DNA of 64,000 nt, from assembly GCA_964016885.1 (NCBI GenBank), contig OZ024743.1, positions 295,058,001 through 295,122,000 of the forward strand, written 5' to 3'. Positions 9,349 to 53,865 of the stretch are shown here, piece by piece. The DNA is from Eledone cirrhosa. Its lineage: Eukaryota. Position 1 is the stretch's first letter; each line of letters opens with the position of its first letter. Made by a program: the position numbers and the translations under genes. The notes beneath the pieces were generated by a model. It was not told the DNA's origin and searched no databases. It saw only the letters and a list, made by a program, of their open reading frames with translations.

Positions 9349-9644
9349 GGAAAAAAGGAAATTTCATTTATCACTCTTAGTACGACTGATGACGGTGCTG
9401 ATGACAGCTAATAAGCTAGAAACTAGTTCATCGTTCCTTTGTCAGTGTTGAACAAATAGGGCAGCGATGACTGCCGAACACTGTACGGCTAATAATTCGG
9501 GCTGTTTGTTTACAAACAGACCGAGCATTATAATAAATGTTCGGTAAACCCATACGTACATATATATATATGTGTGCATGTATGAACACACATACTACTG
9601 TACGGCTGTACACATGTATGTAAGCACGTATACATACTTACATT

Positions 9645-23854: not shown

Positions 23855-25647
23855 AAGGATTCTAATGCCGTGCATGTCCATTCCGACAAAACTGGCAACC
23901 TATATCAAGTGGAGCGCAGTACTTACCATCAACTACTTCATGATGCTGTAACTAAGGATTACCGTAAAACTAATCGGTGCGTCATCAATGAATTCAACGA
24001 TGCTGGGTTTAAAATCACCTCTGATCTCAACATCGTGGACCGGACCGAACCTATGGACCCTATTTCTCCCCACTTTACCCTGAATGATCACAAATCCAAT
24101 TTTCCGAACAACGCCTCTATTCGGCTTATTAACCCTACGAAGACGATTTAGGTAGACTTAGTAAAAGGATTCTCGATAGAATTATACCTGAAATTAGAAG
24201 TTTGGCCCCTCTTGCACTGTGGAACAATTCTTTCGCGGTGATTGATTGGTTCAACGGTATATGCAACAAGGAACATTGCCGTTTTATCCAATTCGACATC
24301 AATAATTACTACACCTCCATCACTTTACCACTTATCCTTAGGGCTATCAATTTCGATAAAACACTCACAGTGGTTAAGGATTTCGAATTTGATGTCATCC
24401 TCAATGCTCGCAAGTCGGTGATTAATTTCGACGACTCTATTTGGATAAAAAAAAACAATAGTACCCCATTCGACGTGAGTATGGGCGCCAGCGATTCTGC
24501 GGAGGTTACTGATCTTATCGGCCTTTTCCTTCTTTTCTCTATCAAGGATGAATTCCACAACGCGGGCGGTGATTTGTACCGTGATGACGGTCTTTTGACC
24601 ATGACTAAGTGCGGCCCTCGTGCTTGCGACAGGTTCAGAAAAGAACTCACACCCTCCTTTAAAGGCTTAGACCTCTCTATACAGGTTGAGGCCAACCTCT
24701 CGGTCGATAATTACCTCGACGTTACCCTCAATTTATCGAATGGCTTGTATTACCCGTATAGAAAGCCGAATGATACGCTTAATTACATAAGTAAGCATTC
24801 CAACCATCCTGCCAGCATAACCAAGAGCCTGGTATGAAACGTTTCGTTGAGGCTTTCCCGTCTATCTAGTAACGAGCATATTTTTAACGACCATTCCACA
24901 TATTACAATGAAGCTCTTGCTCGGAGTGGATTTGTCGATAAGGTAGCATATACAGAGTACGAGAATAGACCTAGAAGAAATAAATCCCGACGCATTATAT
25001 GGTATAACCCACCATATAATATGGATGTGGCCTCACCTTTAGCTAAGATCTTTCTATCCCTTATTACGAAGCATTTTCTCCCTACACATAAACATAGTAA
25101 CATTTTTAATAGAAATACTGTTAAAATTTCTTACTCTACGACTCCTAACCATGCACATAACATCACAGCTTTAAATTTAGCTAAACTACCTAGCCGTAGG
25201 AACACGTGCAACCCTGTAGTTAGTACTAACTGTAATTGTAGGAATCGGGTTGATTGCCCCATATCCGGGAAATGCCTCTCTAGTAACATTGTCTACAAAT
25301 GTAAGGTTGAAACACCCACGTCCCGTAGTGCCTGCATAGGGTTAACGGCCAATATATTCAAGCAGCGTCTTTACATGCATACCCATTCTTTTCGTTAATC
25401 TCTAAGAACGAATATGACGTCACTTTCAGCTTATATCTGGAGTCTAAAAGAAAACCACACCCAATTTAAGTTACACTGGGAGATCCTAGCTAAGGCTAGA
25501 TCGTATAACGGAAATAAAAGACCATGTGACCTCTGCGCCGCTGAAATACTCTACGCTACAGACCACATCTTAAACAAAAAATCCGAGGCAATTTCGGCTT
25601 GTAAACATAAATTGCACAAAATTTTCCTGTATTACATTATACCCTAA
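23855..25647 (+). pseudogene. PLE reverse transcriptase + GIY-YIG endonuclease (one frameshift, two stops)
   Basis: DKTGNLY, RLINPTK, FIQFDINNYYTSI, FDVSMGASDSAEV, LYRDDGL, NYLDVTLNL, SNHP, IIWYNPPY, CNCR...CP..GKCL, IVYK, IGLT..FKQR, CDLC..E. Frameshift at ~24145; stops at 24835 and 25396. Confidence 0.92.
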
Positions 25648-26583
25648 CGGATAGTACGATCTATACGTGGATATTTTATGTCTTGATGTTGTAGCTAAGT
25701 ATATGTTATGTTTATACCATTACTTATTTGCATAGGTAAGTATATATTACCTGTATGTTTTGTGAATGTACGTATACTTTCTCGTATATTTGATTGTATA
25801 TGTTATGGCGTATATTTTTTATATATTCTGGTACATATGCTTTTGGTTATGTGTATACGGGAGATTTGCGTCTGTGTGAGTATGCGGGTTCGTACATATG
25901 TAGGGTGTGTGTATATATATAATTAGTATTTTGGTTGAAGTACGTCTCCGATCATTTGCGCATTTACATGTTGTTATGTGTGTGCGCTTGTTATATACGT
26001 ATTTATTTATTTATTTATATACGTTTATTTAATTATTTGTATACACGCACACACACACACACATATTTATATGTGCGTGTATTTGTATACCTATGGTCAG
26101 TGTTTTCGCGTATGCTTGTCTATGTACGTATTTGGATGCGTGTATGTATTTATTTAATTTCTATTACCTCTGTATATTATTTACTTTATTCTTAACTCTG
26201 ACGCGGAGAATCATTCGGTTTCCTAGTTAGAATTTTAGTCTACGACTTCAGTTATACCATTTACGTGGTTTTGTCTTTGCGTGCAATTGTTCTCTACGCT
26301 CCACATATGACGTATTATCTCCGTTTTTTCCGTTCATTGCAAGAGAACGTCTCTATGAACCCCCAAAGAGAATATTAGTCTACGACTTCTGTTATACCAT
26401 AAACGTGGTTCTGTCTTTGCGTGTAATTATTTTTCACCGCTCCAATTAATGACGTATTATATTCGTTTTTTCCCGTTCTTTGCCAGGGAACGTTTCCACG
26501 AACCAAAGTATCGTCTTCCTGTCTTCCTCCGGTTGCAACGTTTTTTGAAATATTCGCTTCTGCGTTTACAGATTGACTTTGTT

Positions 26584-28030: not shown

Positions 28031-31000
28031 ATAATAATAATAATGATTTCATTTATTGGCCACAAGGGCCGACATATAGGGGACAATACAAAAGACTGGG
28101 ACAGTGCGGTCTTACAGAAAAATCGAGTAAACAATATGAATAACAATGACAAAGGAACAATAAAATTACGAAAGAAAAAAATTCCCCAATAGTGGGGAAG
28201 ACCACTTCAGGGTTCGCTCAGATACCCCACTAATCCTGAACGACCCGACGCTTCGAAATCACCCTGGAAGGGTACCCCTCTCCTCCTCAAATGTATCTAC
28301 CTACAGCCGCATGACCAGAGTAGGCCCACTCACACGGGCCATTCTCGCCACATTCACCCACCTTTCAGCAAATATACTGGGGGGCAGCACTTCTCTCTCC
28401 ACCCTCACCTTCCTTTCCAAGTGAAGCTTAAAAAAGTTGATTAGGGATTGGCCGAAGAGAAAAGTGTCTGTTTTCAGTGCTTTCAACCTCGTCCACCATA
28501 CAACCTCTTTCGCTACTGCCACAAGACAGAGGAAAATTGCTTGCCCTTCCTGGCCAAAAGAAGGCGGCGGGTTCATATTCACTATGGACTCGGCCGATAG
28601 CCGGATCCGTTCTACACGCGACAACAGCTGTTCAACATAACTCTACAAGTCAGTAATGCACGGAAACTGGATGAGTGCAGAACGGTTTCGTCGCCCTGCG
28701 CGCATCTCGGGCAGGTCCGTCTGACAGCACTTCCGTGCCTGTAGAGTTTATCTCGAACCGGCCGTGCCCCCCCCCCCGGTAGCACTGCCAAGCGAGGGAC
28801 TTTTGGAAATTATCCATCGTCCCCGGCTCGAAAGTCCTCCGGTACAGACTGGTTAGTTCGACTTCGTTGACTCCCAGAGACTCTCCGAGTGCGTCGTCGC
28901 ACTTGCCCACCACAAATCCTCTAAAGAACTCGAGAGTGGAAGTTCCACTGACCGCATTTCCCGCCTGGTAGAGGGCAGTGAGTGCCTGGCAAGATTCCAG
29001 ATGCCAGTCACCCAGTCTCGGTCTCTTCTTAACCCACCCAGGACTGCAGCTCAGTCAAAGAAACAAGCTGTGGAAAGACCCGTCTGACAAGCGGCGACCA
29101 CACCTGTTCACCGTTTAGGCAGAATATCTGGAAATGCCGCAGCCTAAGAGCGTGCTTGCGCATCATTAGCCACGGCATGTCCAGCCCTCCACGTAGAGGG
29201 TGCTGGCAGTAGATAGACTGCCTCACCAGCGGAACCTGACCCCTCGACAAGAATTTGATGAGGAGCCGCTCCAAGATGGCGAGGCGCGAACGGGGACAAG
29301 GGACGACGGTCAGACGGTAGTAGATGACGGACGCGATGTACGCGTTCGCCACCTCCGCCCGACCTTTCAGTGATAGCTTCATCCCAGTCCATTTCTGGGT
29401 GAGATTGGCTACCCTGCCCATGACCTCGTCCCAATTCTTATCCACCTGGAGCTCTGGCCCGAACCAAACCCCGAGCAACTTTACCGGTCCGTCCGTCCAG
29501 CGCCTAACGACGCTGTTGGACGGCATGGACTTGCCTCTCCAGGTGCCGAGTTGCAAGCCCACCGACGTTTCCGGGTTAAGTTTTGCTCCCGTCAGCCTTT
29601 CATATTCCTTCGATAAGTTGCCGAACACCTCGATTTCTGAGGTATCCGACACCATCACGGTGATGTCGTCCGCATAAGCCGACACAACCTTTCCGCGTCC
29701 CGGTTCGAGCGGGATGCCCTGCAAGAGCTCCAGCTTCTGAAGACGGGGCCGAAGCCAGACGCTTTGAGGACATCCTCGGGGTACCGATGGTCAACTCTAT
29801 CAAATGCTTTCGATTAATCTAAATTGATCAGAGCCCCACCGAAGCCAGGTTTACACCCTACCCTCTCTATGATGTATCGCATTAGGTGGTGGTTGTCGTG
29901 TATGGACCTGGTTGGGATTGCGCAAGTTTGCGTCTCCCCAACCAAATCCCCTACGAAAAGCGACAACCTCTTCGCTAACACACTGGCCAAAATCTTAAAC
30001 TCTGTGTTGAGCAGAGTTATTGGCCAGAAATTGTCTAATGTGTCCCTCTTGTTCTCGTCTTTCCTTATCAGCGTCACTACGCCCCGGCTCACAGAACTGG
30101 GAATACTCCCGTGTTGCTGCCAGTTGCAGTAGAGGGCTTCGAGGAGAATGGAGAACAAGTCTGGCATATTTACGTAAAGCTCGTAGGGCAGACCATCCAA
30201 ACCGGGTGACTTGCGCCTCATGCAGCCGACAAGGGCATCCTGAATCTCGGCTGAAGTAATTGGCCTTTCGCAGCGCCCAGCGTCAGCCGTCGAGAGTTGC
30301 GGCAAGCCATCGAGGTAGGGACTGAAGTCCGCCACCATCTCTGACCCGCCACTTCCCCCGAACAACCGAGCAAAATGTTGGCGAAAGGCCTCACACTTGG
30401 TTCTAGACGATTTTGCACCCCCCACTCCTATCGGATACTCCCACACAGTCCCAGCGTGCGTCTAAGATGCCGTTCCATGCCCCGCTAACAGTAAAGGGCG
30501 CGACGTGCCCAGAAAGGCTTCCAGGCGTCTAAAGAAGTCCGACCGTCCTGCCCCAGTATGAGCATAGACGGCCACCAGTCTAAAGGCTCCACCTTCGTTA
30601 TTATTCACGTCCAGGACCACCAACTTCCCGTCCGGTCCCGGAAGATCGACCTTACCTCGAGATCCATGCCTTTCCTAAACAGCACTGCCACCCGCCTCCC
30701 ATTCCCGGCCGGCTAACAGATGCAAAGATCTGATAGTCGTCGAAAATGGGGGCTAGTGCGCGCGTGTCGGAAACCCTGGTCTCGCTGACGGCAATTACAT
30801 CCATTTCTAGAGACCTGAGGTCGTTGAGCAAGTTACCCTGTTTCCAGGACGATCCCAGGCCTCGAACATTTAAGCATCCTACTCTTAATACGGCCCTGTT
30901 GGCAGCTTAAAAAAGAGAGAGGAAATGTTTACTTACCTTCCGGGCTCGTGTGAAGGTCGGGTTGTTCGACCTCCATAGTTGGTGGGGTTTCTTTTGGGAA

Positions 31001-32988
31001 CCCCTTTAAAAGTCTTGAAGTGGACTTTACGTTCGGGGTTCCCACGTTCCGAGGAAAGCTGTCTCGTATTTCTTTGTATAAATCGATCGACATTCGCACC
31101 AGAAATCAAATCTTCCGGCACGCGAAATGTGCTCGATTTAAAAATTTCCCCCTCTTTTTGTATATTTTCACTTCGTGCTACGAGGGCCATCCGTTCCTTG
31201 TTCGCCCTCCTGACGAGCACGAAATTGTGTATGTTTTGTTGTGATTTTATTTGTTTGCGTGGCTGTGGTGGTGATGTTGTTTCGGTTGTGTCTGTGTTTG
31301 TTGTGAGTGCGGTGTCTGTGGTTTCAGATGTTTGTGTGTATATTTGTTCTTGCATCTGTTTAGGTTGTTTGCGTTTGGGGGATTCTCGTGATGGTGATGG
31401 CGGTGTTGGTGTTGGTGTTATTGGAGAGATGTTTGCGTGGGTGGTGTCTGCGTTTTATATTGTGGCTGATTTTGTGCTTTGTTGAGTTTTTTTTTTTCTT
31501 TTTGTTTCCTATTTTGTATTTTGGGGGATTTTGGTTTTCCCTCATCTTCACTACTGGTAGATGAGGGGGTCTGTGTCTGTAAGTGTGTCTGTATGTATGT
31601 TTATGTTTTTATTGGTGTGTGTATTTTGGGAGGGAGGGGGAATTTGACAGCTTTCCTCGTTTCCCCCCTGGGTGGTCAATGTTGGTGGTGGTCTTTCTAT
31701 TGGTGTTGTTGTTGGTGGTTTTGCCGGTGATGGTGTTGGTTGTGGTCCTCGCCCTGGCGTTGGCAGCAGTGGAGCCTTTCGACCCCTTTCCTCTTTCAGC
31801 AGTTGAGGGCAGAAGGCTCGCAAATGGGTTTTTTCCCCACAAACAAAACACTGCGGCCTTTTGCCTTCGGTCATAATGTGCATGACCGTCCCATTGTGAA
31901 AGCGGATGTGGTCCTTGATTGTCTTCACATTCTCGGGCCTGATCTGGCGAAGGATCTCCAGGTCAACCCCGAACCAGTCCTCTCTGGCCGTTCTGGTCAC
32001 TTATATAGGGACAGTATCCGTCCCCTCCACAATCACACATCCCAGAAGCCACCACATGTCAAGTCCTGGTGGGATTCTGGGAATGAGGACACGGGCCGTT
32101 TTTTCCCATGTGGGAGGGGTACATTATGACCTTGCTGGTTTTGCAAGGAGTCATAGCGTGTTTCATAGCGAGGGCTTCTGACTTGAACAACACCGAAATG
32201 GTGCCGTACTGTCTGCCCCTCTCTATGTATTCGGTGTCTTCTCTGATGCACCTCAGCGCGACTTCGACATCTTCTTGTGGGATTAAAGCTGCCCTTTTGG
32301 TTTGTGCTGAGATGCATCTATAATGCACCGTTCTGCGCTCCACTGCCTCAATAGCTTCTACCGGGACAGTTAAATTGGCCCAGGTTTGCTCCTGCTTGAT
32401 GAGCTTCCATGCCTGGGCCAACTTTTCATCTTTGTTTGAGAGGTCCATGTTGAATCATGGCCTCTTTTTGCTGCTATCATTGTTGTCTTTGTTGCTACCG
32501 TTGTTTTTGGTGCAGTTGGTATTATTGCTGTCGGTGTTGTCGCTATTTGTTTTCATGTTAGCGGTGTTGATATTGTTGTTGCATTTGTTATTTTTTTTTT
32601 TTTTGTTATCTGTATTTTCGTTGTCGATGTTACTGTCATTTTTTTCAAAATTAGAGTTCTCATTGGTATCATTGCTGTCATTGTTTACATTGTTTGTGGT
32701 GGTGTTTGTGTTATCAATTTGTGTTAATTTCGCTGTAGCGCTCCTCTCAACTAGTACGTCGCATGGGGGAGTCAGCCATTTTTGTTTTTTTTCTCCGTAA
32801 ATTTTTTAACATGCAAAAAAAAGTTCAAATATTTCGGCCAAAAGGCCCAAATATTATACATTCCCCTTCACAGGGCAAAGTCTACGGGCCTATATCCCTT
32901 ACACAACAAGAAATATTTAACAACAAATAATTTTAACAGGCAAATAAAGCGACTTACTGGGAGTGAGCAAAATACGTCCGATTAGACC
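28031..32988 (-). mobile_element. Near full-length L1/Tx1-clade LINE (ORF1 + ORF2 with internal deletion)
   Basis: ORF1 ~32779-30933 with an RRM-like region and CFVCGEKTHLRAFC knuckle. ORF2 has APE (LNVRGL, AVYA), KSPGLDGLPYE, PITLLNTEFKILA and AYADDIT. The APE C-terminus and linker are deleted at ~30420. Bounded by (TAA)n. Confidence 0.9.
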
Positions 32989-33028
<40 letters not shown>

Positions 33029-33029
33029 G

Positions 33030-33217
33030 TTTCTTATATAGGCACAATGCCAGTATTTGGGGGGAGGGGAAAGTCGATTAAATCGACCCCAGTGCGTGAC
33101 TGGTACTTTATTTTATCGACCCCGTAAGGATGAAAGGCAAAGCTAACCTCAGCGGGATTTGAACTCAGAACGGAAAGAGTCGTAACTCTATGCTATGATA
33201 CTGCCAATACTTCGCCC

Positions 33218-33219
<2 letters not shown>
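33030..33219 (-). mobile_element. SINE copy between two (TAA)n tracts
   Basis: Reverse-complement B-box gagttcaaatcccgctgagg and central domain. Confidence 0.9.
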
Positions 33220-33288
<69 letters not shown>

Positions 33289-36200
33289 TCTTTTTTTATT
33301 AACCACAAGGGTCTACATAAAGTAAACATTAAAGACAGTACAGGACAATATAAGGCGGTACAAATGGGCATTTCTGCGTGTAAAAAAAAGAAACAGAGAA
33401 TGTAATAATAGAACAATGAAAAAATTCCCCAATAGGGGGGAGACTTCCGAGGGACATTCGTGGAGAAAGCCCATTAAAAGACCACAGTGACCCTGACCAC
33501 CAGGGCAAGAGCCCTCTTCCAGTTTTCCACCTTTAATTTACAGACATATACTCAGAGTAGGCCCATTGACTCGGGCCATTCTTGCCTCTCTCACCCATTT
33601 TTCAACAAAATGCTGGGAAGAGAGCACTTCCCTCTCTACCCAGATTTTCCTTTTTAAATGAAATTTGAAAAAGTTAATCAGGACATCACCGAAGAGGTAA
33701 GTGCTCGTCTTCAGCCCTTTCAAAGGTGTCCACCATAATATCTCTTTCGCCATGCCCACCAGACAGATAAAAACTGCGCTAAAGGAAGAGGGCGGGGCAA
33801 TCTTCACGATGGACTCAGCTGATAGCTGGATTCGTCCTACACGCGACAGCAGGTGTTCTACATAAACCCACAAGTCAGCAATGCTCGGACACTGGACAAG
33901 TGCGTGCAGGACGGTTTCGTCGCCCTGCGCGCATCTCGGACATGCCCGACTGACGGCACCTCCATGCCTGTAGAGTTTATCTCGAACTGGCAAAGCTCCT
34001 CGGTAGCACTGCCAGGCCAGGGATTTCTGGAAGTTGTCCATAGGCCCCGGCCTGAAAGTTCTTCCGAAGAGACTGGCTAGTTGATTTTCGTCGACGCCTA
34101 GAGTTTCCCCAAGTACGTCGTCGCTCATCCCCTCCACTAATCCTTTATAGAACGCCAAGCTGGAGTTTCCACCGATCAGATTGCCCGATTGCTCGAGGGT
34201 TGTGAGCGCCTGAAGACATTCCAGTCTCCAAGCGCTACCCCTCGGTCTTGGCTTGACCCAGGACTGCAGCTCTGTCAAGGAGACAAGCTGGGGAAAGACG
34301 CGTCTAGCAAACGGAGACCACACCAGATCACCGTCGAGGAAGAGGTGGAGATGTCGTAGCCTGAGCGCGGGTCTGCGCATCATCAGCCACGGCATTCCCA
34401 GCCCTCCACGTAGCGGCTGTTGACAGCAGATGGACCGCCTGACCATCGGAGCGCGTCCCTTCCACAAAAAGCGAAAGAGCAAACGCTCCAGTGCAGTCAG
34501 GCGGGGCTTAGGACAAGGTACGACGGTCAGGAGGTAGTAGATGACGGACGCGATATACGCGTAGGCCACCGCGCTCGACCTTTCAGGGATAGCTTCCTCT
34601 CCGCCAATTTCTGGGTGAGAGAAGCCACCCTGCTCGTCACCTCGTCCCAGTTTTTGTCCGTCTGGAAATCCGGACCGAACCAGACCCCGAGCAATTTAAC
34701 TGGTCCGTCCGTCCAGCGCCCGACGACGCTGTTGGACGGCATGGACCTGCATCTCCAGGTGCCGAGCTGCATGCCCACTGACTTTTCCTGGTTGATCATT
34801 GCTCCTGTCACCGCTTCGTATTCTCTTAGTGTAGTGCCGATCGCCTTGATGTGTTTGGCGTTCGACACCACTACGGTGACATCGTCCGAATATGCTGACA
34901 CGGATCTTCCGCATCCTAGTTCGCGCGGGATCCCCCTCAACGTCTCCCGTTTGTGCAGTAATGGCTCGAGTGTCAATACGTACAAGAGGGACGAGAGGGG
35001 ACATCATTGGCGGACCGAGCGCATGATGTTGAACGGTTACGAAAGGTGACCGTTCACTCTCACCACAGAGCAGATGTCGCTGTGCATGGCAGCGATCCAG
35101 CATCTGAAGACGGGCCCAAAGCCAGCCGCCCTCAGGACTGCCGCTAGGTAACGATGGTCGACCTTATCGAAAGCTTTCGACTAATCTAAATTGATCAAGG
35201 ACCCACCCGTGCCAGATTCCCTAGCTACCCTCTCTACGATGTATCGCATGAGGTGGAGGTTGTCGTGGATGGATCTGTCGGGAATGGCGCATGTCTGCGC
35301 CTCTCCCACTAGACCCCAACGACAAGCACCAACCTCTTTGTTAGCACCTTGGCCAAAATCTTGAACTCTGTGTTTAGCAGGGATATGGGACTGAAATTAT
35401 CTATGTTATCCCCCTTATTCGGATCCTTTCTCAGCAGCGCCACAGCTCCTCGGCTCACAGAGCTAGGAATTCACCCGTTCTGTTGCCAGTTGCAGTAGAC
35501 GTCCGCCAAGAGGCCTCTGAACAAGTCTGGCATCTGTACGTAAAGTTCATAGGGCAGACCATCCAAACCAGGCGATTTACTCCTTGTGCAGCTAGTCATT
35601 GCCTCCCGTACTTCAGCGGCTGTTATCGGCTATTCGCAACACTCCGCCTCAGTGGCCGAGAGACGCGGCAGTCCGTCGAGTTAGAGACTAAAGTCCATCC
35701 CTCGATCCGGCCCGCCGCAGCCCCCGAACAACTTAGCGAAGTGTCGCTGAAAAGCTTCACACATTTGCCCGGGATCGAGTAGCATGCGCACGTCGTGGTC
35801 CACCAAAGACCGGATCATGGCTTTGTTGCCACGACGCCCCTCCGCCACTAGGGCCCATTGAACGGCTTTCGTCCCCTCGTGTCTGAGAGCACGCACCCTA
35901 GCTCTGACAATGCAGCCTTCGTGCTTTGCGTTGAAGAATTGGTCAAGAGCCAATTTCGCCGCAAGTACGTCGGTCGCGATGCTTTTGCTAAGCGCCTCTT
36001 ATAATGTTCTAACTAATTCTCCCTCTGCTCTATTTTTCTCTATTGCTAAAGCCTTACTAAACCTAATGGACTCTATTCTAATTGCTCTTTTCAGAGCAAA
36101 CCACCACTTGTTGACGATGGCCCCCGTCAACGCCCGCTTAACTAGTTCGCTAATCCGGTCTGGTCTCTGTAGGCCTTGCGCGCTGGTAAGGACGCGTTTA

Positions 36201-36624
36201 ACTTCCAGTAGCCGGGTCCTCGTCTATGAAGCCTATCTAAGTCAAGCATACAGATCACGAATGTGTGGTCCGTGTAGCTGAATTGTGGACAGCCTATGCT
36301 AGACCTATCTATTTCTCTACAAAATACTCTATCTAGATATGATCTGGATGACCCTATGCGATTTGTCCAAGTCCACAATGGCACATTCGGGAAATCCAAT
36401 CGGTACCTGTTAGACAGTTCAAAACTCCTGAGCAGGTTGGTGAGACTCTTGCACCCTCGTCCCCTATCCGCTAATCCCACACAGTCCCAACGTGCATCTA
36501 AGATCCCGTTCCAGGCGCCCACTAACACTAAAGAGCGGGACGTTCCAAGAAAGGTCTCCAGACGCCGGAAGAAATCATGCCGCCCTGCTCCTGTCGGGGC
36601 ATAAACGGCCACTAGCCTGAAGGC
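33220..36624 (-). mobile_element. 5'-truncated L1/Tx1-clade LINE (mid-APE to 3' end, long (TTA)n tail)
   Basis: AFRLVAVYAP, SYLDRVF, GYWKLN, AYSDDVT and CPRC...ETVLHALVQC in ORFs 36142-36633, 34527-34985 and 33538-34569. Confidence 0.92.
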
Positions 36625-37655
36625 TGACAACACCCGCTACGCGGAGGGCTGGGAATGCCGTGGCTGATGATGCGCAGACCCGCGCTCAGGCTACGACATC
36701 TCCACCTCTTCCTCGACGGTGATCTGGTGTGGTCTCCGTTTGCTAGACGCGTCTTTCCCCAGCTCGTCTCCTTGACAGAGCTGCAGTCCTGGGTCAAGCC
36801 AAGACCGAGGGGGAGCGCTTGGCGACTGGAATGTCTTCAGGCGCTGACAACCCTCGACCAATCGGGCAATGTGATCGGTGAAAACTCCAGCTTGGCGTTC
36901 TATAAAGCATTAGTGGAGGGGAAGAGCGACGACGTACTTGGGGAAACTCTAGGCGTCGACGAAAATCAACTAGCCAGTCTCTTCGGAAGAACTTTCAGGC
37001 CGGGACCTATGGACAACTTCCAGAAATCCCTGCAACTCTCGTCCAATGTCCGAGCATTACTGACTTGTGGGTTTATGTCGAACACCTGCTGTCACGTCTA
37101 GGACGGATCCAGCTATCAGCTGAGTCCATCGTGAAGATTGCCCCGCCCTCTTGCTTTAGCCGGGAAGGGCAGGCAGTTTTTATCTGCCTGGTGGCCATGG
37201 CGAAAGAGATAGTATGGTGGACACGTTTGAAAGGGCTGAAGACGAGCACTTACCTCTTCAGTGATGCCCTGATTAACTTTTTCAAATTTCATTTGAACTG
37301 GAAAATCAGGGTAGAGAGGGAAGTGCTCTCTTCCCAGCATTTTGTTGAAAAATGGGTGAGAGAAGCAAGTATGACCCGAGTGAATGGGCCTACTCTGTGT
37401 ATGTGTCTGTAAATTAAAGGTGGAAAACTGGGAGAGGGCACTTGCCCTGGTGGTCAGGGTCACTGTGGCCTTTTATTGGGCTTTCACCACAAATGTCCCT
37501 CGGAAGTCTCCCCCCTATTAGGGAATTTTTCCTTGTTATTTTTATTACATCCTCTGTTTTTTAACACGCAGAAATGCCCATTTGTACCGTCCTGTATTGT
37601 CCTGTACTGTCCTTAATGTTTACTTTATGTAAACCTTTGTGGTTAATAAAGAAAG

Positions 37656-37702
<47 letters not shown>
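36625..37702 (+). mobile_element. Second 5'-truncated copy of the same Tx1 subfamily, head-to-head with 33220-36624
   Basis: High-identity reverse complement of ~33290-34425 with an internal deletion near 37030; has its own (TTA)n tail at 37657-37702. Confidence 0.92.
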
Positions 37703-37703
<1 letters not shown>

Positions 37704-40700
37704 GGCCGCACATGTGTGAAGACAGTACAAATCTGAGGGGGAAAAGGTTCGTAACTTTAAGCTGTTTTAAAGTGTCATTTTTTGTATTTTCTCGTCGTTA
37801 ACGAAACTTAAGTTACACATCTTGATTTAAAGAGAGGGATACCTCTCAATATTCGCGCTTTAAGCCCGAATATTCAGATTTATTTTTAAAATCTTCGAAA
37901 AAAATCACTTCACCACCAAAAGAAAATTATGGAAATTTTCGATCTTGAAATGGTAAACAACGTTCAGGTCAAAAGTTTAACGGCAGCCACTGTAGATTTC
38001 ACCACGACTACGACGGCTACAGTCATGCCTGTCATCCACTCTACTGAATGTGAAGGCAAAACTCAAAAGCTAACATCACAACCTTCTGCGATAGCAGCAG
38101 TATCATCTGAAAACGACATCACCACCACCACAACAATAACTCAGAGCAATAACGACAATAACACCGACAGCTTCAATGTAAACAAGGATGGCGGTGGCAA
38201 CACCAATAACAACAGCAAGAATGACAACAATGGCAACAACAACAACAACAACAATAAGAGCATCACAAACACCACATTTGCTGCAGCAGCAGCAAAAACA
38301 AAGCGCTTATTGAATATTGATATTGATATTAGCGATAAAGAGGAACAGTTGGCCAAAGCGTGGAGGCTAATTAAACGGAAGAAGTCCTGGGCAAACCTGA
38401 CCATCCCGGACGAGGCAATAGCGGCCATGCAAAGGAGGACGCTTTTCTTTCGATGTATTTCGGTGCTGACACGAAAAGTGGAACTTGCGAGCCAAGCAGA
38501 GGTAAACAGTTCGGTACCATCTCTGTACTGTTCAAAACCGAGGCCCTCGCTATTAAGCACTCGGTGATCCCCTGCAGAACGGAACGCATTATCATGCATC
38601 CGTCCTATATGGGTAAAAGGACAGTGAAGGTACGCATTCCCAGCATCCCACCAGGAATGAACATATGGTGGCTGCTGGGATGCGTAATCGAGGAGGGGAC
38701 AGACACTACCCTCATGGACATCAAAAGGACAGAGAGAGAGGACTGGTCCGGAATGGATTTGGAGATTCTTCTCCAAATAAAACCGGAGGATATGAATAAC
38801 ATCCCGGATTTTGCTCGCCTGCAGGACGGGACAACAATCGAACTAATGATTATTGGAAGAAGGACACGCTGCTTCGTCTGCGGGGAAGCAACACATCTTC
38901 AAGCCTTCTGCCCTCAGCGCAAAAATGCAGGGGGTCGCAAACCTCCTTTGTTGCCAACGCCAGTGTCAGCACGGAAAGCTGCACCACCACCACCACCAAA
39001 AACAACATCAACAAAAACACGGACACCAACACCAAAACCAATCCAAGGAGAAAACGAGGAAAGCTCTCCCACTCCCCCTACCCCCCCCAATTATACACAT
39101 AGACAAAACAATAAACGCACACACAGACACAGAGACACTCACAGACACAGACCCTTTGTCTTCCAGCAGCGAAGATGAAGGAAAACCCAAAAGTGCAAAA
39201 AAAAAACAGAGAAAACTCACTAAAAAAAAGCCCCAACAAAACACAGAAATACACACAACAAAAAATACAGACACCACTAACGCAAACACTTCCCCAATAA
39301 CATCATCACCAACAGCAACATCGACACCACCTCCACAATCCCCGAAACGCAAACAACTTAAACAAACACAAGTACAAATAAACACACAAATACCTGAAAT
39401 TGCAGACAACACACCTACAACAAACATAGACATACCCGAAACAACACCACCAAAACCATCGCCACCACCTTCACCAAAACAAAAACAAATAAAACCACAC
39501 CAACAAAATGTTAAAAACTTCGTGCTTGTCAGAAGGGCCAACGATAAACTGATGGCCCTCTTAGCGCGAAGCGAGGACATTCAAACAGAGGGGGGATTTT
39601 TGAAATGAGCACATTTTGCGTGCCAGAAGATTTGCTTCTGGTCCGAATGTCACTCAATTCCTTCAAAGAAATTCGAGAGAGCTTTCCTCGAGACGTGGGA
39701 ACCCCGAATGTGAACCCACATCAAGACTTTTAAAGGGGTTCCCAAAAGAAACCCCACCAAACATGGAGGTCGAACCACCCGACCTTCACAAGACCCGGGA
39801 GGTAAGTAAACCTTCCATCTCTCTCTCTCTCTCTTAGCTTACCAATATGGCCATATTAAGAGTAGGAAGTTTAAATGTTCGCGGCCTGGGGTCACCCTGG
39901 AAGCAGGGTCGCCTGCTCAACGACCTCCGGTCGCTGGAAATGGATGTGATTGCCATAAGCGAGACCAGAATTTCCGACAAGCGCGCACTAGCCCCCATTT
40001 TCGACGACTATCAGATTTTCGCATCTGTTAGCAGGCCGGGAATGGGGGATGGGGTGGCAGTGCTGTTTACGAAAGGACTGGATCTCGAGGTAAGGTCGAT
40101 CTTCCGGGACCCGGACGGTCGGTTGGTGGACTTGGATGTGAGCAGTAGCGAAGGTGGGGCCTTTAGACTGCTGGCTGTCTACGCACCTACAGGGGCCGGA
40201 CGACCTGACTTTTTTAGGCGCCTGGAGACCTTTCTGGGTACGTCTCGCCCTTTACTGTGGCTTGAGCTCGGTTTGGAAACAGGGTCACTTGTTTAACGAC
40301 CTCAGGTCACTAAACATAAATCTGGTGGCCATCAGCGAGACGAGAATCTCTGAAACGCAAGCTTTCGCACCGATCTTCGACGGTTACGAGGTGTACTCAT
40401 CTCATAGCGGGCAGTGGAGTGGCTGTATTGTTTCGGAAAGGCTTGGATCTCGCCATACGGACCATCTTCCTGGACCCAGAAGGTAGGTTGGTGGTGCTGG
40501 ACGTAAGCGGCACCGAATGCAACGCTTTCAGGCTAGTAGCCGTCTATGCCTTAACAGGGACAGGAGGGCCAGATTTCTTCAGACGTCTAGAGATCTTCTT
40601 GGAACGTCCCGCTCTTTAGTGTTAGTGGGCGTCTGGAACGGTATCTTGGATGCATGCTGGGATTGTGTGGGGCTAGTGGATAGGGGAGGAGGGTGCAAGA

Positions 40701-43700
40701 TCCTCACCAATCTGCTCAGACTTTTTGAACTGTCTGACAGGTATCGACTGGATCACCCGAATGTGCCAATGTGGACATGGACAAACCGCATCGGGTCATC
40801 CAGATCGTATCTCGATAGGGTATTCTGCAGAGAACTAGATAAGGCTAGTATAAGTTGTCCACAATTTAAAATAGTCGACTACAAAAGCCACACATTTGTG
40901 ATCTGTGAGATCGACATAAATAGACTTCAGAGACAAGGACCCGGTTACTGGAAGCTGAACGCATCTTTCCCGGCGCGCAAGGCCTACAGAAACCGGATTA
41001 GTGTATTACTTAAGCGGGCGTTGACGGGAGCGGACGTCAACAACAGGTGGTGGTTCGCCCTAAAAAGGGCAATTAAAGTAGAGTCGATTAGCTTTAGCAA
41101 ACGGCTAGTGATAGAGGAAATTAGAGTAGAGGGAGAGCTAGTAAGAAAGCTAGAAGAGGCGTTTAGGACAAGCATCGCAACAGACGTGCTTGCGGCGAGA
41201 TTGGCACTTGACCAATTCTTCAACGCAAAACACGAAGGCTGCGTTGTCAGAGCTAGAGCGCGTGCTCTGAAACACGAGGGGACAAAAGCCGTCCAATGGG
41301 CCCGGGTGGCAGAGGCAGGGCCTGGCAACAAAGCCACAATTCGATCTTTATATGATCAAAATGGGCGCGTGTTGCTCGAACCCGAGCAGATGTGTGAAGC
41401 TTTTCAGCAGCACTTTGCTGAACTGTTCGGGAGCAGCGGCGGGCCGGATCGTGGTATGGATTTCAGTGCATACTCGACGGACTGCCTCGGCTATCGACGA
41501 CCGCAGCACAGTGTTGCGATAAGCCAATAACAGCCGGTGTAATACGGAAGCGATGGCTAACTGCACGAGGGGTAAATCGCCAGGTTTGGATGGTCTGCCC
41601 TACGAGCTTTATACATTTATGCCAGACTAGTTCGCTGACCTCTTGGCAGACGCCTACTGCAACTGGAAGCAGAACGGGAGCATTCCCAGTTTTGTGAGCC
41701 GGGGAGTGGTGGCGCTGCTGAGAAAAGCCCCGAAAAAGGGGAATGTTATCGATAATTTCAGGCCCATAACCCTGCTAAACGCAGAGTTCAAGAATTTGGC
41801 CAAGGTGTTAGCAACGAGGTAGGCGCTTGTCGTCAAGGGTCTGGTGGGAGACGCGCAGACATGCGCCATTCCGGACAGATCCATACACCTCATGCGATAC
41901 ATCATAGAGAGGGTGGTTAAGGAACCTGGCGCGGGTGGGGCCCTGATCATTTTGGATAAATCGAAAGTATTCGAGAGGGTCGACCAACGGTACCTTGCGG
42001 CGGTCCTCGAGGCAGCCGGTTTCGCGCCCGTTTTCAAGGGTTGGATCGCTGCGATGTACAGCGACATCTGCTCAGTTGTGAGGGTGGACGGTCACCTGTC
42101 GCAGACATTCAGCTTCATGCGCTCGGTCCGCCATGATGTCCCCTCTAATTCTTCTTGTACGTATTGGCTTTCGAGCCGTTACTGCACAAACTGGGGGCGA
42201 TGAGGGGCGTCCCACGCGAACTAGCGTGCGGAAAATCCGAGTCGGCTTACCGACGACTTCACCGTTTTGGTGTCGAGCACCAGACGCGTCCAAATGCTCG
42301 GCAGCGCTCTCAAGGAATACGAAGCGGTGACAGGAGCAAAGATAAACCAGGAAAAGTCAGTGGGCTTGCATCTCGGCACCTGGAGAGGCAAGTCCATGCC
42401 GTCCGACAGCGTCGTGGGGCGTTGGACAGACAGACCGGTTAAATTGCTCGGGGTCCGGTTCGGACCGGACCTCCAGATGGTGAAAAACTGGAACGAGGTG
42501 ACGAGCAGGGTGGCCTCATTCACCCAGAAATGGGCCGAGAGGAAGCTGTCCTTGAAAGGCCGGGCGGAGGTGGCGAATGCGTACATCGCATCGTCATCTG
42601 CTACCGCTTCACAGTCGTCCCTTGCTCCAGCCCAACTCTCACCAAAATGGAGCGCCTCCTCTTCCGCTTTTTGTGGAAGGGACGCGCTCCCATGCTCAGA
42701 CGATCCATCTGCTGTCAACACCCGTTGCGTGGAGGACAGGGCATGTCATGGCTGATGATGTGCAAACATGCGGTGAGACGGCGACATATCTGGTGCTTCC
42801 TTGACGGTGAACAGGTGTGGTCGCCGTTCGCCAGGCACGTTTTCCCACAGCTCGTCTCCTTGACGGAGCTGCAGTCCTGGGTCAGAAAAAGACCGAGGAA
42901 TAGCGCTTGGAAACTGGAATGTCTCCAGGCGCTCACTGCCGTCCGCCAGCTAGGCACGAGTATCGGTGGAACTTCCACCTCGGCGTTCTATAGAGGACTA
43001 GTGGAGGGGAAGAGCGACGACATTCTCGGAGAGATCCTGGGCGTCGAAGAAGATTTTGCTCTCTTCCGGAGCACGTTCAGCCCGGGGCCTATAGATAACT
43101 TCCCAAAATCCCTGGCCTGGCAGTGCTACCGGGGAGCGCTGCCGCTTTGAGATAAGCTCTACAGGCACGGAAGTGCCGTCAGCCGAGCCTGTCCGAGATG
43201 CGCGCAGATCGACGAAACCGTCGTGCACGCACTCGTTTAGTGCCCGAGCATTGCTGACTTGTGGAGCTATGTCGAACAGCTGCTGTCGCGTGTAGGACTG
43301 ATCCGGTTATCGACTGAGTCCATTGTGCAGATGGTCTCGCCATCTTCCTTCGAGGAGGAAAGGCAGGCGGTTTTCATCTGCCTGGTGGCCATGGCGAAAG
43401 CGATTGTATGGTGGACAAGGTTAAAAGGGTTAAAGACAGACACTTTCCTCTTCGGCGAATCTCTGATTAACTTTTTCAAATTTCACTTGAAGAAGAAAAT
43501 CAGGGTGGAGAGGCAAGTCCTGCCTTCTAGCAAGTTTGTTGAAAGGTGGGTGAATGTAGCGAGAATGGTCCGAGTGAACAGGACCGTTCTGAATATACGT
43601 CTGTAGTTTGAGAAATGGAAAAATTGAGAGAGCGCGCTTGCCCTGGTGGTCAGGGTGGTCGTGATACTTTGAGTGGTTTTCGCCACAAGTAACCCTCGGA

Positions 43701-43918: not shown

Positions 43919-46670
43919 TTCTTTGAGTCTCAGTCATTGATGTTAGTTAACTGGAAAGTTTGTTGAAATGAATATCAAACCACTACCTACAGCCTCAGAT
44001 ATTCAGGACGTATCGGAGGGTTCTTGCTGTTCCCAGCAAGCATGCCTTTCGAAGCGTTCCAAAAAGCGTGAAGGGGCCAATTTTCTTTACCATCCCTGGA
44101 AACTTTTTGAGATAGTACCTAGTGCGCCTATGACAATCGGGACCACTTTGACTTATTATTATTATTTATATTATTATTATTATTATTATTATTATTGTTG
44201 TTCTTTGAGTCTCAGTCATTGATGTTAGATAACTGGAAAGTTTGTTGAAATGAATATCAAGCCACTACCTGCAGCCTCAGATATTCAGGACGTATCGGAT
44301 GGTTCTTGCTGTTCCCAGCAAGCATGCCTTTTGAAGTGTTCCAAAAAGCGTGAAGGGGCCAATTTTCTTTAACCATCCCTGGAAACTTTATCAGATAGTA
44401 CCTAGTGCGCCTATGACAATCGGGACCATTTGACTTCATGGCAGTTCCAAATCCATTTTACCTCCCACTTTAAGTCCTGGTATCGGTTAATTTTCTCCCT
44501 CTCCTTCTCTTGCACTCTCGTGTCGAATGGGCAGGCCACATCCACAATCAGGTACGATCTTTTTTCTTTGTCCAAAACCACCAGGTCAGGTCTGTTGTGT
44601 TCCAATTTCTTGTCCGTCTGTATCCTAAAATCCCACAGCACCTTCACCTGATCGTTTTCTATCACCGACTCAGGCTTATGCTCATACCACTTCTCAGAAT
44701 GTCGTAAATTGTTTACTTTGCATAGGTGCCAGTGGATCTCCCTGCCCATCACATCATGTCTCCAGCCCTTATAGTGAGTCTGGGCTAGATGTTTACACTC
44801 GGATACAATGTGATCTACAGTCTCCTCTCTCTCTCTCCACAGATCCTGCACAGTGGGCTAGCCTCCTCCTTGCAAATATGGTGTTTCAACCACTTCATTT
44901 TGAGGGCCTGCTCTTGCGCAGCCATTAACATTCCTTCTGTAGCCTTTTTAAGGTCTCCTCTTTTCAACCAGTCCTCCTTGTCAATATGGTGTTTCACCCA
45001 CTTCGTTCTGAGGGATTGCTCTTGCGCAGCCATTAGCATTCCTTCTGTAGCTTTTTTAAGGTCTCCTCTTTTTAACCAGTTCCATGTCTGTGGATCTCTA
45101 AATTCCGTTTTCTTAAAGAAGGTACTATGAAGGGATTTTTTATGAAGGTTGCTCTTCCTCCCTGGACATCTCCTGGTCTATTGTTTTCTCCTTCAGTACA
45201 GTTTTGAGCATTGGCTCCCTACTCTCAGTCACATATTTGTACAGGTTGTTTTTCTCCATCTGAACACAGTCCTCTATGCTGATAAGACCTCTTCCACATT
45301 CAAATCTCTTTAAGTTGAGTCTATCGACATCACTCCTCTTGTGGAACATGTAGAGCCTTCCTAGTCCTCCTATCCATTTCTTTTTGTTCAGCAACATTCC
45401 ATTTCAGAATTCCCGCACTGTACCTAATAATAGACACAGTTCGGGAATTTACTGCACTTATGACATTCCTACTATTTAGATGTGATTTTAATACGCTCGT
45501 TACTCTCCTTACGTACTCAGATCTTATCAATTCCTTCATTTGTTTGTTCATCTGCCTCCAGAACACCTAAATATTTTTACCGCTCTTCAGTGTCCATTTC
45601 CTTTATCATCTCACCTGTTGGTATCTGGATTCACTAGGACTTCACACTCATTAATACCAAATTCCATACATATATATCATTGCTAAAAATACGGACAGTG
45701 TCAATAAGTACATCCAACTCCTTCACACTCTTCTCAAAAAGTTTAAGATCGTCCATGAATAGGAGGTGGTTGATGGTAAGCTCTCCTCTTCCCAACTTGT
45801 ATCCTGCTCTCACTTTTCGCAATATAACAGATAGGGTATCAGGGCAAGGACAAACAGCAGAGGGGACAAACTATCTCCATGGAAGATACCTCTCTTGATC
45901 TTCACGGCTACCAAGGATTCTCCAGCTGATGTTAACTCTGTTTCCCAGGACTTCATACTTTTGCTCAACAACTGTCTGATGCTATCTGCCTCCTTGAAGA
46001 TCTCTAGGCTTTTGGTGATCCAAGAATGAGGTACCATGTCGAATGCCTTTTTGTAATCTATCCATCCCATGGCAAGACCAGTGTGCCTCTTCTTGCAATT
46101 CCTCATTACCATCTTATCAATAAATAACTGGTTTTTTGTACCACGGGACTTCTTTCGGCATCCTTTCTGTTGGTCCGGTAACAAGTTGTTTGTGTGGAGG
46201 TGATGGTAGATTTCCTCAGACACAATGCTTGTTAACAGTTTCCACATTACGGATAGACATGTGATAAGTCTATAGTATGTAACATCCTTACCATTGATTC
46301 GGTCTTTCATTATCAGAACTGTGGTACCTTTTGTCAACCACTCTGGTATTTCACCCGACATCAAGCAGTCATTGAACATGGTTGTCAGTTTCGGGTGGAG
46401 GGATGTTATATTTTTAATCCAATACACCTGCACACCATCTGGGCCTGGTGATTTCCAGTTGGTTAGATTTTTGGCCTGCCCTTTAAGAGTTTCAACTGCG
46501 ATACTCAAATCAGGTTGTTGGTGTGCTTGTTCACTAATCTCCTTTTGAACTGTCTCAATCCACACTGCCTGACTATTATGTTCAACATCCTGCTCCCATA
46601 TTCCTCTGCAGAATGTCTTAGTTTTTTCCGCCTCAGGGATCACGTCGTTGCCTCTTTCTTCTTCTCCATC
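43900..46670 (-). mobile_element. 5'-truncated R4/Dong-like retrotransposon (RT, CCHC, RLE) with duplicated 3' end
   Basis: KSPGPDGV, QKGC, WIDYKKAFDMVPH, GIFHGDSLSPLLF, HLLFMDDLKL, CRICG..EETVDHIVSEC, RHD and NRPDL. 3' ~240 bp present twice (43912-44152, 44197-44434); ~108-bp internal duplication at 44875-45082. Confidence 0.92.
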
Positions 46671-47031
46671 TTCTTCTTGTGTATCATCATCTCTGACATA
46701 AAACTAAAAGTTCAGTGCATGAGAAGAAATACCTAATGGATTCGTTTGAAAACATTTTTGTCCAAGTATTGATGAATTGTATTAAAAAATAAAAGTTAAG
46801 AATTCGATGACATTACGACAGGCTTTCTAAATCGATTCATCAAAAACAATATGGCACGGTAATTAATGAAGTATGATAGAGTACGTTGTCCACTCAAATA
46901 TTTCGTCGTAATTTACCCCGGTATATACATTATTTTAGACAGATGAGTGTTTCATCACACTAAAAATCAATCTTCCTTTGCTCTTAACAATGACTAGTAG
47001 TAAGATAATGTGTCTCACGGATCTAGATATA

Positions 47032-47225
<194 letters not shown>

Positions 47226-47227
<2 letters not shown>

Positions 47228-47780
47228 GAAATAGTCTATCGCTCTACATCGCTGAATACAATAAATGTAATCTGATTTTTTTCGAATATTAATAATAATA
47301 TTTGATTCGTTTGCAATTATGCAAAGGGCTTCTTTTTACATTTATTGTATTGAGCAATGTAGAGCGATAGACTATTTGTTAGTTATTTGAATATGGCAAA
47401 CCGGTCATTAATCGCTCGTATACGTGAGACTGACTGGCCTATCTGCTGATATGCAAATCTGGCTGATCAGTGGGTCTGCTAATAAGCAGATATGACTGAT
47501 AGGCCAATCTGATAATATGCAAATCAGTCTGATCAGTCACTACTATATTTTAGAAAATATCATATATGTTCACTAGCTTTGAGAGTCGGCAGGTGAGCAG
47601 TATACTGCACTGATGAATGGTAATTACCCAGAAACATTAATATCTGCAGTTCTGTTTACATGCCAATACAGGAGCAAGAATGACGAGGGGAGGTCATTCT
47701 ACTGACATGGCTTTAAAACATGGGTGTTTGCATAATTGCAAACGAAAGAAATGTTTTTATTAATTTTCGAAAAACTCAGA

Positions 47781-47787
<7 letters not shown>
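47226..47787 (+). mobile_element. Non-coding HHR element: ~450-nt unit plus an inverted fragment spanning the unit end-start junction
   Basis: 47229-47270 is the reverse complement of 47336-47377, and 47265-47325 is the reverse complement of 47727-47786. HHR at 47604-47650; flanked by (TA)n. Confidence 0.8.
47604..47650 (+). ncRNA. Type I hammerhead ribozyme
   Basis: actgca-CTGATGA-a tgg taattac cca-GAAA-cattaata-TC-tgcagt. Confidence 0.82.
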
Positions 47788-47868
<81 letters not shown>

Positions 47869-48058
47869 GTAATCTGAGTTTTCTAAGTCAAATAATTATA
47901 TTATGTATATTTATGGATGATAATTTGTTTAAGTTTCAACTCTTTCTTGACAGACATGTTATGAGCAGAGGCGAAACAAAAGTCTTTTCGTCAGTGACAT
48001 AAAACGTAACTATACACACGCGCGCGTACACAAACATATACGCATGCAGGCAGACACA

Positions 48059-53097: not shown

Positions 53098-53865
53098 ATA
53101 TATGTAAGTACGTATGTATGTATATGTACATACATATATGCATACAGACGTACAGTAGCATGTATATATATACATACATGCACACATATATATATGCACG
53201 TATCGGTTTACCGAACATTTATTATAATGCTCCGTTTGTTTGTTTGTAAACAAACAAACAGCCTGAATTACTCCGTACAGTGTTTAGGCAACCACGTCAC
53301 GTTTTTGTTCAACACTGACACAGGAACGATGTACTAGTTTCAAGCTTATTAGCTATCGTCAGCATCGTATACCTTCCTGCCAGATGGTTGAAAGTCTGAA
53401 AGTATATACTTTCCTTATGCATATTTATCGTTTTCGGTGTGCCCGGCCGACTGAACTCACTAGATATGCAAATTAGGCTGATCAGCCGTTAATATGCATA
53501 AGGAAAGTATATACTTTCAGACGTTCAACCATCAGGCAGGAAGGTATACAATGCTGACGATAGCTAATAAGCTTGAAACTAGTATATCGTTCCTGTGTCA
53601 GTGTTGAACAAAAAGGTGACGTGGTTGCCTAAACACTGTACGGCGTAATTCGGGCTGTTTGTTTGTTTACAAACAAACAAACCGAGCATTATAATAAATG
53701 TTCGGTAAACCGATACGTGCATATATATATATATGTGTGTGCATGTATGTATATATATACATACAACTGTACGTCTGTATACATATATATATGTACGTAT
53801 ACATACATACTTACATTTAAGTAAGTGCCGTACTAAGAGTGAGAAATGAAATTTCGTTTCATTCT

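What the first reader, a model, noticed from the sequence alone, without database searches (positions are those of the whole stretch)
47226..47787. Circularly permuted junction: possible fossil of a ~450-nt circular or tandem HHR RNA template
Seen: the + unit starts ttacatttattgtattgagc (47336) and ends tcagaatacat (47786). The inverted fragment 47325->47229 reads continuously from the unit END (tttgcataattgcaaacgaa...ttcgaaaaaaatcagattacat) into the unit START (ttattgtatt...gcgatagactattt). There is one HHR per unit and no ORF. Inference: the template was a circle or multimer of a ~450-nt monomer, as for retrozyme circRNAs, inserted with PLE-style inversion.
Basis: partly seen in the sequence, partly recalled or inferred. 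Interest (0 to 1): 0.75.

Follow-up and report, generated by a model that had tools for sequence, protein, structure and literature searches.

The report
Hammerhead retrozyme with ribozyme-cut insertion footprints
This is one decayed copy of a short non-coding repeat, present in thousands of copies, that carries a predicted self-cutting RNA motif; its insertions have the two-armed shape of Penelope retrotransposons and often stop right at the predicted cut site, so it was likely copied by a borrowed Penelope enzyme from a small RNA that was sometimes cut open and sometimes closed or uncut.

Summary
The locus is a head-to-head, two-armed insertion (47335->47229 minus, 47336-47786 plus) of a 438-439-nt non-coding monomer with one type I hammerhead (HHR), in (TA)n; the genome holds thousands of copies. 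The end-to-start junction alone does not show a circle: it is the ordinary Penelope-like (PLE) 'tail'. Family-wide data say more. 3' ends sit at two fixed sites; 73 of 76 fully typed two-arm insertions pair one tail-less with one tailed arm. 5' ends pile up 1-20 nt after the predicted HHR cut (rate 4.2-fold, p=5e-8), so cut RNA was likely a template. Most arms cross that site precisely, and repeated units of one insertion share rare alleles (25 vs 3.7 expected), so one monomer was likely recopied. Best model: a PLE-mobilised non-LTR retrozyme whose template alternates between nicked and closed circle, plus partly cut precursors. Partner PLE and RNA not found. Known kind; this scan found other such families in this genome before, but not this one.

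The parts
47025..47228 (.). (CA)n/(TA)n microsatellite, left part of the target
   Evidence: sequence
47229..47335 (-). left arm: monomer positions 369-438 followed by a 36-nt tail (positions 1-36), ending in (TA)n
47229..47264 (-). PLE-type tail = first 36 nt of the next unit
   Evidence: tail ends at positions 26-48 in the family
47336..47786 (+). right arm: one full monomer plus 6 nt (433-438, 1-438), tail-less 3' end running into (AT)n
   Evidence: 89.6% to subfamily consensus
47428..47537 (+). internal 44-nt direct repeat (47428-47471, 47494-47537, 84%) with two ATGCAAAT octamers (47451, 47517); predicted long hairpin; candidate promoter (inference)
47593..47659 (+). type I hammerhead: core 47610-47616 and 47631-47634, predicted cut after 47644, extended stem I; two pair-breaking changes in this copy
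47787..47865 (.). (AT)n microsatellite, right part of the target
   Evidence: sequence
47863..47902 (-). separate, more diverged fragment with the same 3' end motif pointing into the same TA tract
   Evidence: 81-83% over about 40 nt

Best explanation
This is a two-armed insertion, in a TA microsatellite, of a 438-nt non-coding repeat with a predicted hammerhead ribozyme, likely copied by a borrowed Penelope-type reverse transcriptase-endonuclease from an RNA monomer that was likely sometimes cut at the ribozyme site and sometimes closed (or held as a nicked ring). Steps: (1) a copy with two ribozymes is transcribed and likely releases a monomer cut at position 300-303; (2) the monomer's two ends stay paired in stem I and are likely ligated in part; (3) the PLE enzyme likely cuts both strands of (TA)n and primes two cDNAs at two fixed internal sites 30-45 nt apart, about 140-180 nt 3' of the cut; (4) each cDNA runs until it truncates, meets a cut 5' end (about a quarter to a third of those arriving) or passes the site and copies the monomer again; (5) the two cDNAs are joined head to head. 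Shown: anatomy, fixed 3' ends, tail pairing, 5' pile-up, precise read-through, shared alleles. Inferred: cleavage, ligation, the enzyme, twin priming.
For: Fixed 3' ends in TA: 277 of 328 arms with a typed 3' end. 73 of 76 fully typed head-to-head pairs are END+TAIL, 3 END+END, 0 TAIL+TAIL, about 48% mixed expected. 5' ends: 28 in 1,506 nt at risk at +1..+20 after the cut vs 46 in 10,284 nt further upstream, in single-arm (3.2x, p=0.01) and two-arm loci (4.8x, p=7e-7); no pile-up in the stronger hairpin at 90-200. Read-through is precise: 11 of 203 junctions change length, like background. Two units of one insertion: 7.2% apart vs 10.2-10.6% between loci, subfamily alleles concordant, no position-specific allele in 51 loci; rare alleles shared 25 of 306 vs 3.7+-1.9. 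Two arms share rare alleles 18 of 226 vs 2.8+-1.6. No array of 3 or more units among 273 unique loci, including hits to a 2-unit query. Circular fold of consensus contains the HHR arm. PLE ORFs abound in the genome. Tail = two RT start sites, both strands primed in vitro (PMC11167929).
Against: No RNA evidence and no cleavage assay. Partner PLE not identified: none of 80 PLE loci carries this unit or its end motif as terminal repeat. No pile-up at exactly one turn. No double-sided covariation in the HHR helices in 20 copies; only G-U wobbles, 96% paired, same as shuffles. An invariant A.A opposition lies at the base of stem II. 6 of the 25 shared alleles come from one locus (L041) that may be a DNA-level duplication. 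Second-HHR excess is marginal (11 of 27 arriving, 1.9x, p=0.04). In 10 two-arm loci one arm stops at the HHR and the other crosses it, so one cut linear monomer cannot have templated both. In vitro an Anolis PLE does not need HHR cleavage and its RNA-seq showed no ends at the site. Samples are the best-scoring 40 per query, not random.
Confidence: 0.6

Rival explanations
1. No ring at all: templates are linear, partly self-cleaved transcripts of 1-2+-unit genomic copies or of an unassembled tandem master; units are homogenised by DNA-level duplication or conversion.
For: Explains stops at first and second HHR, precise read-through and the tail directly; uncut RNA is the main substrate in vitro; arrays stay short; no one-turn signal.
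Against: Linear inheritance with 5' truncation only shortens copies and keeps alleles position-specific; none seen across at least four subfamilies; rare alleles shared within insertions; no 3-unit array among hits of a 2-unit query.
Confidence: 0.22
3. The unit is the pseudo-LTR of an autonomous PLE, and the copies are its 5'-truncated ends.
For: Retrozymes are related to pLTRs in Xenopus (10.64898/2026.07.22.740005); same anatomy as PLE ends.
Against: Arms longer than one unit continue into another unit, not into an ORF, in the loci mapped; two PLE loci with a nearby copy (L250, L253) hold it 1.2-1.6 kb away and unattached.
Confidence: 0.04
4. The 5' pile-up marks a transcription start driven by the internal octamers (as recalled for newt satellite 2), not ribozyme cleavage.
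For: Two ATGCAAAT octamers 125-195 nt upstream; a second HHR repeat family has an octamer at a similar place.
Against: Wall coincides with the predicted cut to within a few nt; ends are spread over 20 nt with no constant extra G in the single-arm junctions printed; the newt promoter paper was not found, so the parallel is recalled only.
Confidence: 0.04

Closest known systems
Metazoan non-LTR retrozymes (Cervera and de la Pena 2020, PMC7229834, results and discussion read; Li, Clavereau and Pollet, bioRxiv 10.64898/2026.07.22.740005, abstract to discussion read)
   Same: Non-coding repeat of 150-450 bp, one type I HHR per unit, head-to-tail copies, self-paired predicted circle, co-occurrence with PLEs; PLE mobilisation from circles is proposed there.
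   Different: Mostly 0.3-1.5-unit dispersed insertions rather than long arrays; full PLE insertion footprint; 5' ends marking the HHR cut; circular RNA not shown here.
Penelope-like elements with pLTR, tail and inverted 5'-truncated copy (Craig et al. 2021, PMC8557442, passages read; Frangieh et al. 2024, PMC11167929, abstract and main text read)
   Same: Partial tandems, adjacent inverted copy, 30-45-nt tail at one end only, (TA)n targets as in Hydra, Neptune and Naiad clades, two internal RT start sites.
   Different: No RT or GIY-YIG ORF; HHR site leaves a mark in genomic 5' ends, whereas the Anolis element did not need cleavage in vitro.
Circle model for PLE tandems (Cervera and de la Pena 2014, PMC4209133, passages read)
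   Same: Proposes HHR cleavage, ligation and more-than-unit reverse transcription.
   Different: Proposal only; the data here favour a mix of cut and read-through templates.

Membership tests
metazoan non-LTR retrozyme | type I HHR with conserved core in every unit | tested here: met
   core CUGAUGA/GAAA/GUC in consensus; core sites 2.6% diverged vs 4.1% elsewhere; helices 96% paired, no double-sided covariation
metazoan non-LTR retrozyme | short monomer (150-450 bp) in head-to-tail copies | tested here: met
   438-439 nt; up to about 2.2 units; two complete HHRs only in a minority of copies
metazoan non-LTR retrozyme | no coding capacity, no LTR structure | tested here: met
   variable 5' ends, no fixed terminal repeats
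metazoan non-LTR retrozyme | self-cleavage of the RNA | tested here: inconclusive
   indirect only: 5' ends pile up at the predicted cut
metazoan non-LTR retrozyme | expression as circular and linear monomers | not testable with these tools
   needs raw RNA reads or northern blot
PLE-type insertion | 30-40-nt tail at one end only | tested here: met
   73 of 76 typed pairs
PLE-type insertion | inverted 5'-truncated copy, partial tandems, microsatellite target | tested here: met
   156 head-to-head junctions in 273 loci; 277 of 328 typed ends in TA
autonomous PLE | RT plus GIY-YIG ORF between pLTRs | tested here: not met
   no ORF in the unit; no attached ORF in 80 PLE loci checked

The most novel reading that the evidence does not exclude
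The genomic copies record, in vivo, a hammerhead acting as a gate on a ring-shaped template: the PLE reverse transcriptase starts at two fixed internal sites on RNA from one source, one per DNA end, and at each arrival at the ribozyme site either falls off a nick or crosses it precisely (ligated bond or jump across the paired nick), so ribozyme state sets insertion length and the share of copies (those with two HHRs) that can found the next generation.
Probability: 0.35. Interest if true: 0.7.

Novelty: new member of a known kind. Interest (0 to 1): 0.45.

Why it matters
The role of hammerheads in PLEs and animal retrozymes is described as unclear (PMC8557442), and the only in vitro PLE system did not need cleavage. 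A 4-fold wall of 5' ends at the cut site is indirect genomic evidence that cleaved RNA is used as template in the germ line, and allele sharing is evidence that a monomer is recopied. Both tests can be run on any retrozyme or PLE family from an assembly alone. I found no such analysis in the paper searches made, which cover open papers only; supplements of PMC7229834, PMC11167929 and the bioRxiv preprint were not seen and may bear on this.

Tried and rejected
SINE inside some units as a marker of heterogeneous templates: rejected, the SINE inserted independently many times at the ATTATT stretch, with different 5' junctions, and also lies elsewhere in the flanks. One-turn pile-up as circle signature: none in 50 END and 39 TAIL arms. 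Haplotype switches at the HHR site: only L088 fits clearly, others are explained by CpG decay or are ambiguous. Association of HHR stops between the two arms: not significant, p=0.10. Covariation: none on both sides. Rfam: no match. Partner search: Pfam GIY-YIG scan (30 loci plus 20 long-ORF loci) and the abundant PLE at window 24133-25650 (30 loci): different 3' ends. RNA: no RNA holder listed; DNA contigs show very high depth on conserved words but do not span the locus. One mid-unit query found no candidates although its own copy exists, so the DNA search can miss. Rows dropped: duplicate loci, query copies, 5' ends at SINE breaks (404-417), 80 of 156 head-to-head pairs with an untyped 3' end, indel-prone columns in allele tests.

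Full report
Observation. The minus-strand fragment reads from the end of the unit (53/61 identical) into its first 42 nt (40/42) across a shared TTACAT. Against the family consensus the arm begins at 47335 and abuts the plus arm, which covers one monomer plus 6 nt and ends in (AT)n. One type I hammerhead lies at 47593-47659 with predicted cut after 47644; Rfam does not detect it. There is no ORF.

Family. The window lies in a 3.0-Gb animal genome. The unit gave 3,733 first-look candidates and a 1.45-unit query 4,392 (only 40 are scored per search, so all samples are the best matches to a query, not random). The monomer is 438-439 nt and falls into a graded series of at least four subfamilies, 4-6% from their consensus; the window copy is an older, more decayed one (about 90%). 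In 273 unique loci of 330 fetched, the longest continuous match is 2.08 units, about 2.2 with a SINE-interrupted extension; a 2-unit query found no longer array.

Ends. 3' ends are fixed: either at the unit END or 26-48 nt further, in the first bases of the next unit; 277 of 328 typed ends run into TA repeats. This is the PLE tail, shown in vitro to be the stretch between two internal RT start sites, with both target strands primed (PMC11167929, abstract and main text), and known to occur often at one end only (PMC8557442, passages). Here the rule is nearly strict: of 156 head-to-head junctions 76 had both 3' ends typed, and 73 were END+TAIL, 3 END+END, none TAIL+TAIL (about 48% mixed expected from single-arm loci). 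The window is a typical case.

The ribozyme site leaves a mark. With short queries anchored 3' of the HHR (101 anchored arms after removing duplicates and two query copies), 5' ends pile up just after the predicted cut: 28 ends in 1,506 nt at risk at +1..+20 versus 46 in 10,284 nt from 0 to -299 (rate ratio 4.2, p=5e-8). With the queries starting near +53, 11 ends lie at +1..+25 and 5 at +26..+50 (p=0.046). The excess holds in single-arm loci (8 of 35 arms, 3.2-fold, p=0.01) and two-arm loci (20 of 55, 4.8-fold), and the stronger hairpin at 90-200 shows none. At the second HHR 11 of 27 arriving arms stop (1.9-fold, p=0.04, marginal). The simplest reading is that a quarter to a third of templates had a 5' end made by self-cleavage (inference).

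Read-through and recopying. Most arms cross the site, and precisely: 11 of 203 junction 14-mers change length, as at stable control positions. In 51 loci with 100 nt or more duplicated, the two units differ by 7.2% versus 10.2-10.6% to other loci, agree at subfamily-diagnostic sites and show no upstream- or downstream-specific allele. Rare alleles are shared by both units 25 times among 306 versus 3.7+-1.9 for nearest other loci (56 arms; 6 of the 25 from L041). The two arms of inverted insertions also share rare alleles (18 of 226 versus 2.8+-1.6, 66 pairs), so they come from one source copy. Purely linear inheritance with 5' truncation cannot put a new allele into both units or regrow arrays; some step recopies one monomer. 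A ligated ring, or a nicked ring whose ends stay paired in stem I (as in the predicted fold), would do so. Against a simple intact circle: no pile-up at one full turn, short arrays, and stops at the HHR. In 10 two-arm loci one arm stops at the HHR and the other crosses it, so the pool must include more than cut linear monomers.

Ribozyme structure. The consensus folds stems I-III with an extended stem I; core positions are 2.6% diverged versus 4.1% elsewhere. In 20 copies 96% of cells pair, but changes are one-sided wobbles and do not exceed shuffles. An invariant A.A lies at the base of stem II. The circular folding z-scores (-10, -16) are inflated by the internal repeat. Activity is not shown.

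Partner. The genome has many RT plus C-terminal GIY-YIG elements, but none of 80 loci checked has this unit or its end motif as terminus. The enzyme is inferred from the footprint.

Comparison. It works like, and by sequence tests belongs to, the metazoan non-LTR retrozymes (PMC7229834, results and discussion), which a 2026 preprint ties to PLEs (10.64898/2026.07.22.740005, abstract to discussion); the circle route was proposed in 2014 (PMC4209133, passages). Circular RNA and cleavage could not be tested. Earlier notes of this scan describe other retrozyme families with the same two-armed footprint in this genome; none matched this sequence, this place or the words for the 5' pile-up. My reading was set before I saw them.

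Verdict. Real; a new member of a known kind. Confidence about 0.9 that it is a PLE-mobilised HHR retrozyme, 0.6 for the full model with cut and ring-like templates. Interest 0.45, mainly for the 5'-end signal at the ribozyme site.

Noticed in passing
window 53150-53800 (both strands), 9386-9600; L251:7400-9001; L252: A second HHR repeat family (period about 490-510 nt with an internal TA tract) with an ATGCAAAT octamer about 85 nt before the core and a similar lead-in to stem I; head-to-head at window 53362/53554, tandem of at least 3 units in L251.
   Followed up: partly
window 24133-25650: Broken copy of a very abundant PLE (RT plus C-terminal GIY-YIG-like domain; 61,090 first-look candidates, about 90% aa identity among the best 150) with a long 3' non-coding region.
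   Followed up: partly
window 9141, 17957, 21417, 21636, 21768: Further hammerhead-like motifs with palindromic stem III, several in inverted pairs, likely ends of other PLE families.
   Followed up: no
monomer positions 404-426 in many loci (L002, L011, L020, L021, L051, L063 and others): One SINE family has inserted independently and repeatedly at the ATTATTATT stretch of the unit, a target hotspot; tandem SINE runs in L046. Its likeness to cephalopod tRNA-derived SINEs is recalled, not tested.
   Followed up: partly
window 47863-47902: Older minus-strand fragment sharing only the last 20-40 nt of the unit end, in the same TA tract; may mark a related family using the same enzyme.
   Followed up: partly
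window 45810-46703 (-): RT fragment (Pfam RVT_1, E 1e-12) of a non-PLE non-LTR element next to the locus; not part of the insertion.
   Followed up: partly
L041:1292-2169: Almost exactly two units (34 to 29) sharing six rare alleles including a change in the HHR core, flanked by another HHR-like motif; may be a DNA-level duplication.
   Followed up: partly
window 29000-43200: GC-rich block of several decayed LINE-like copies with APE and RT fragments.
   Followed up: no
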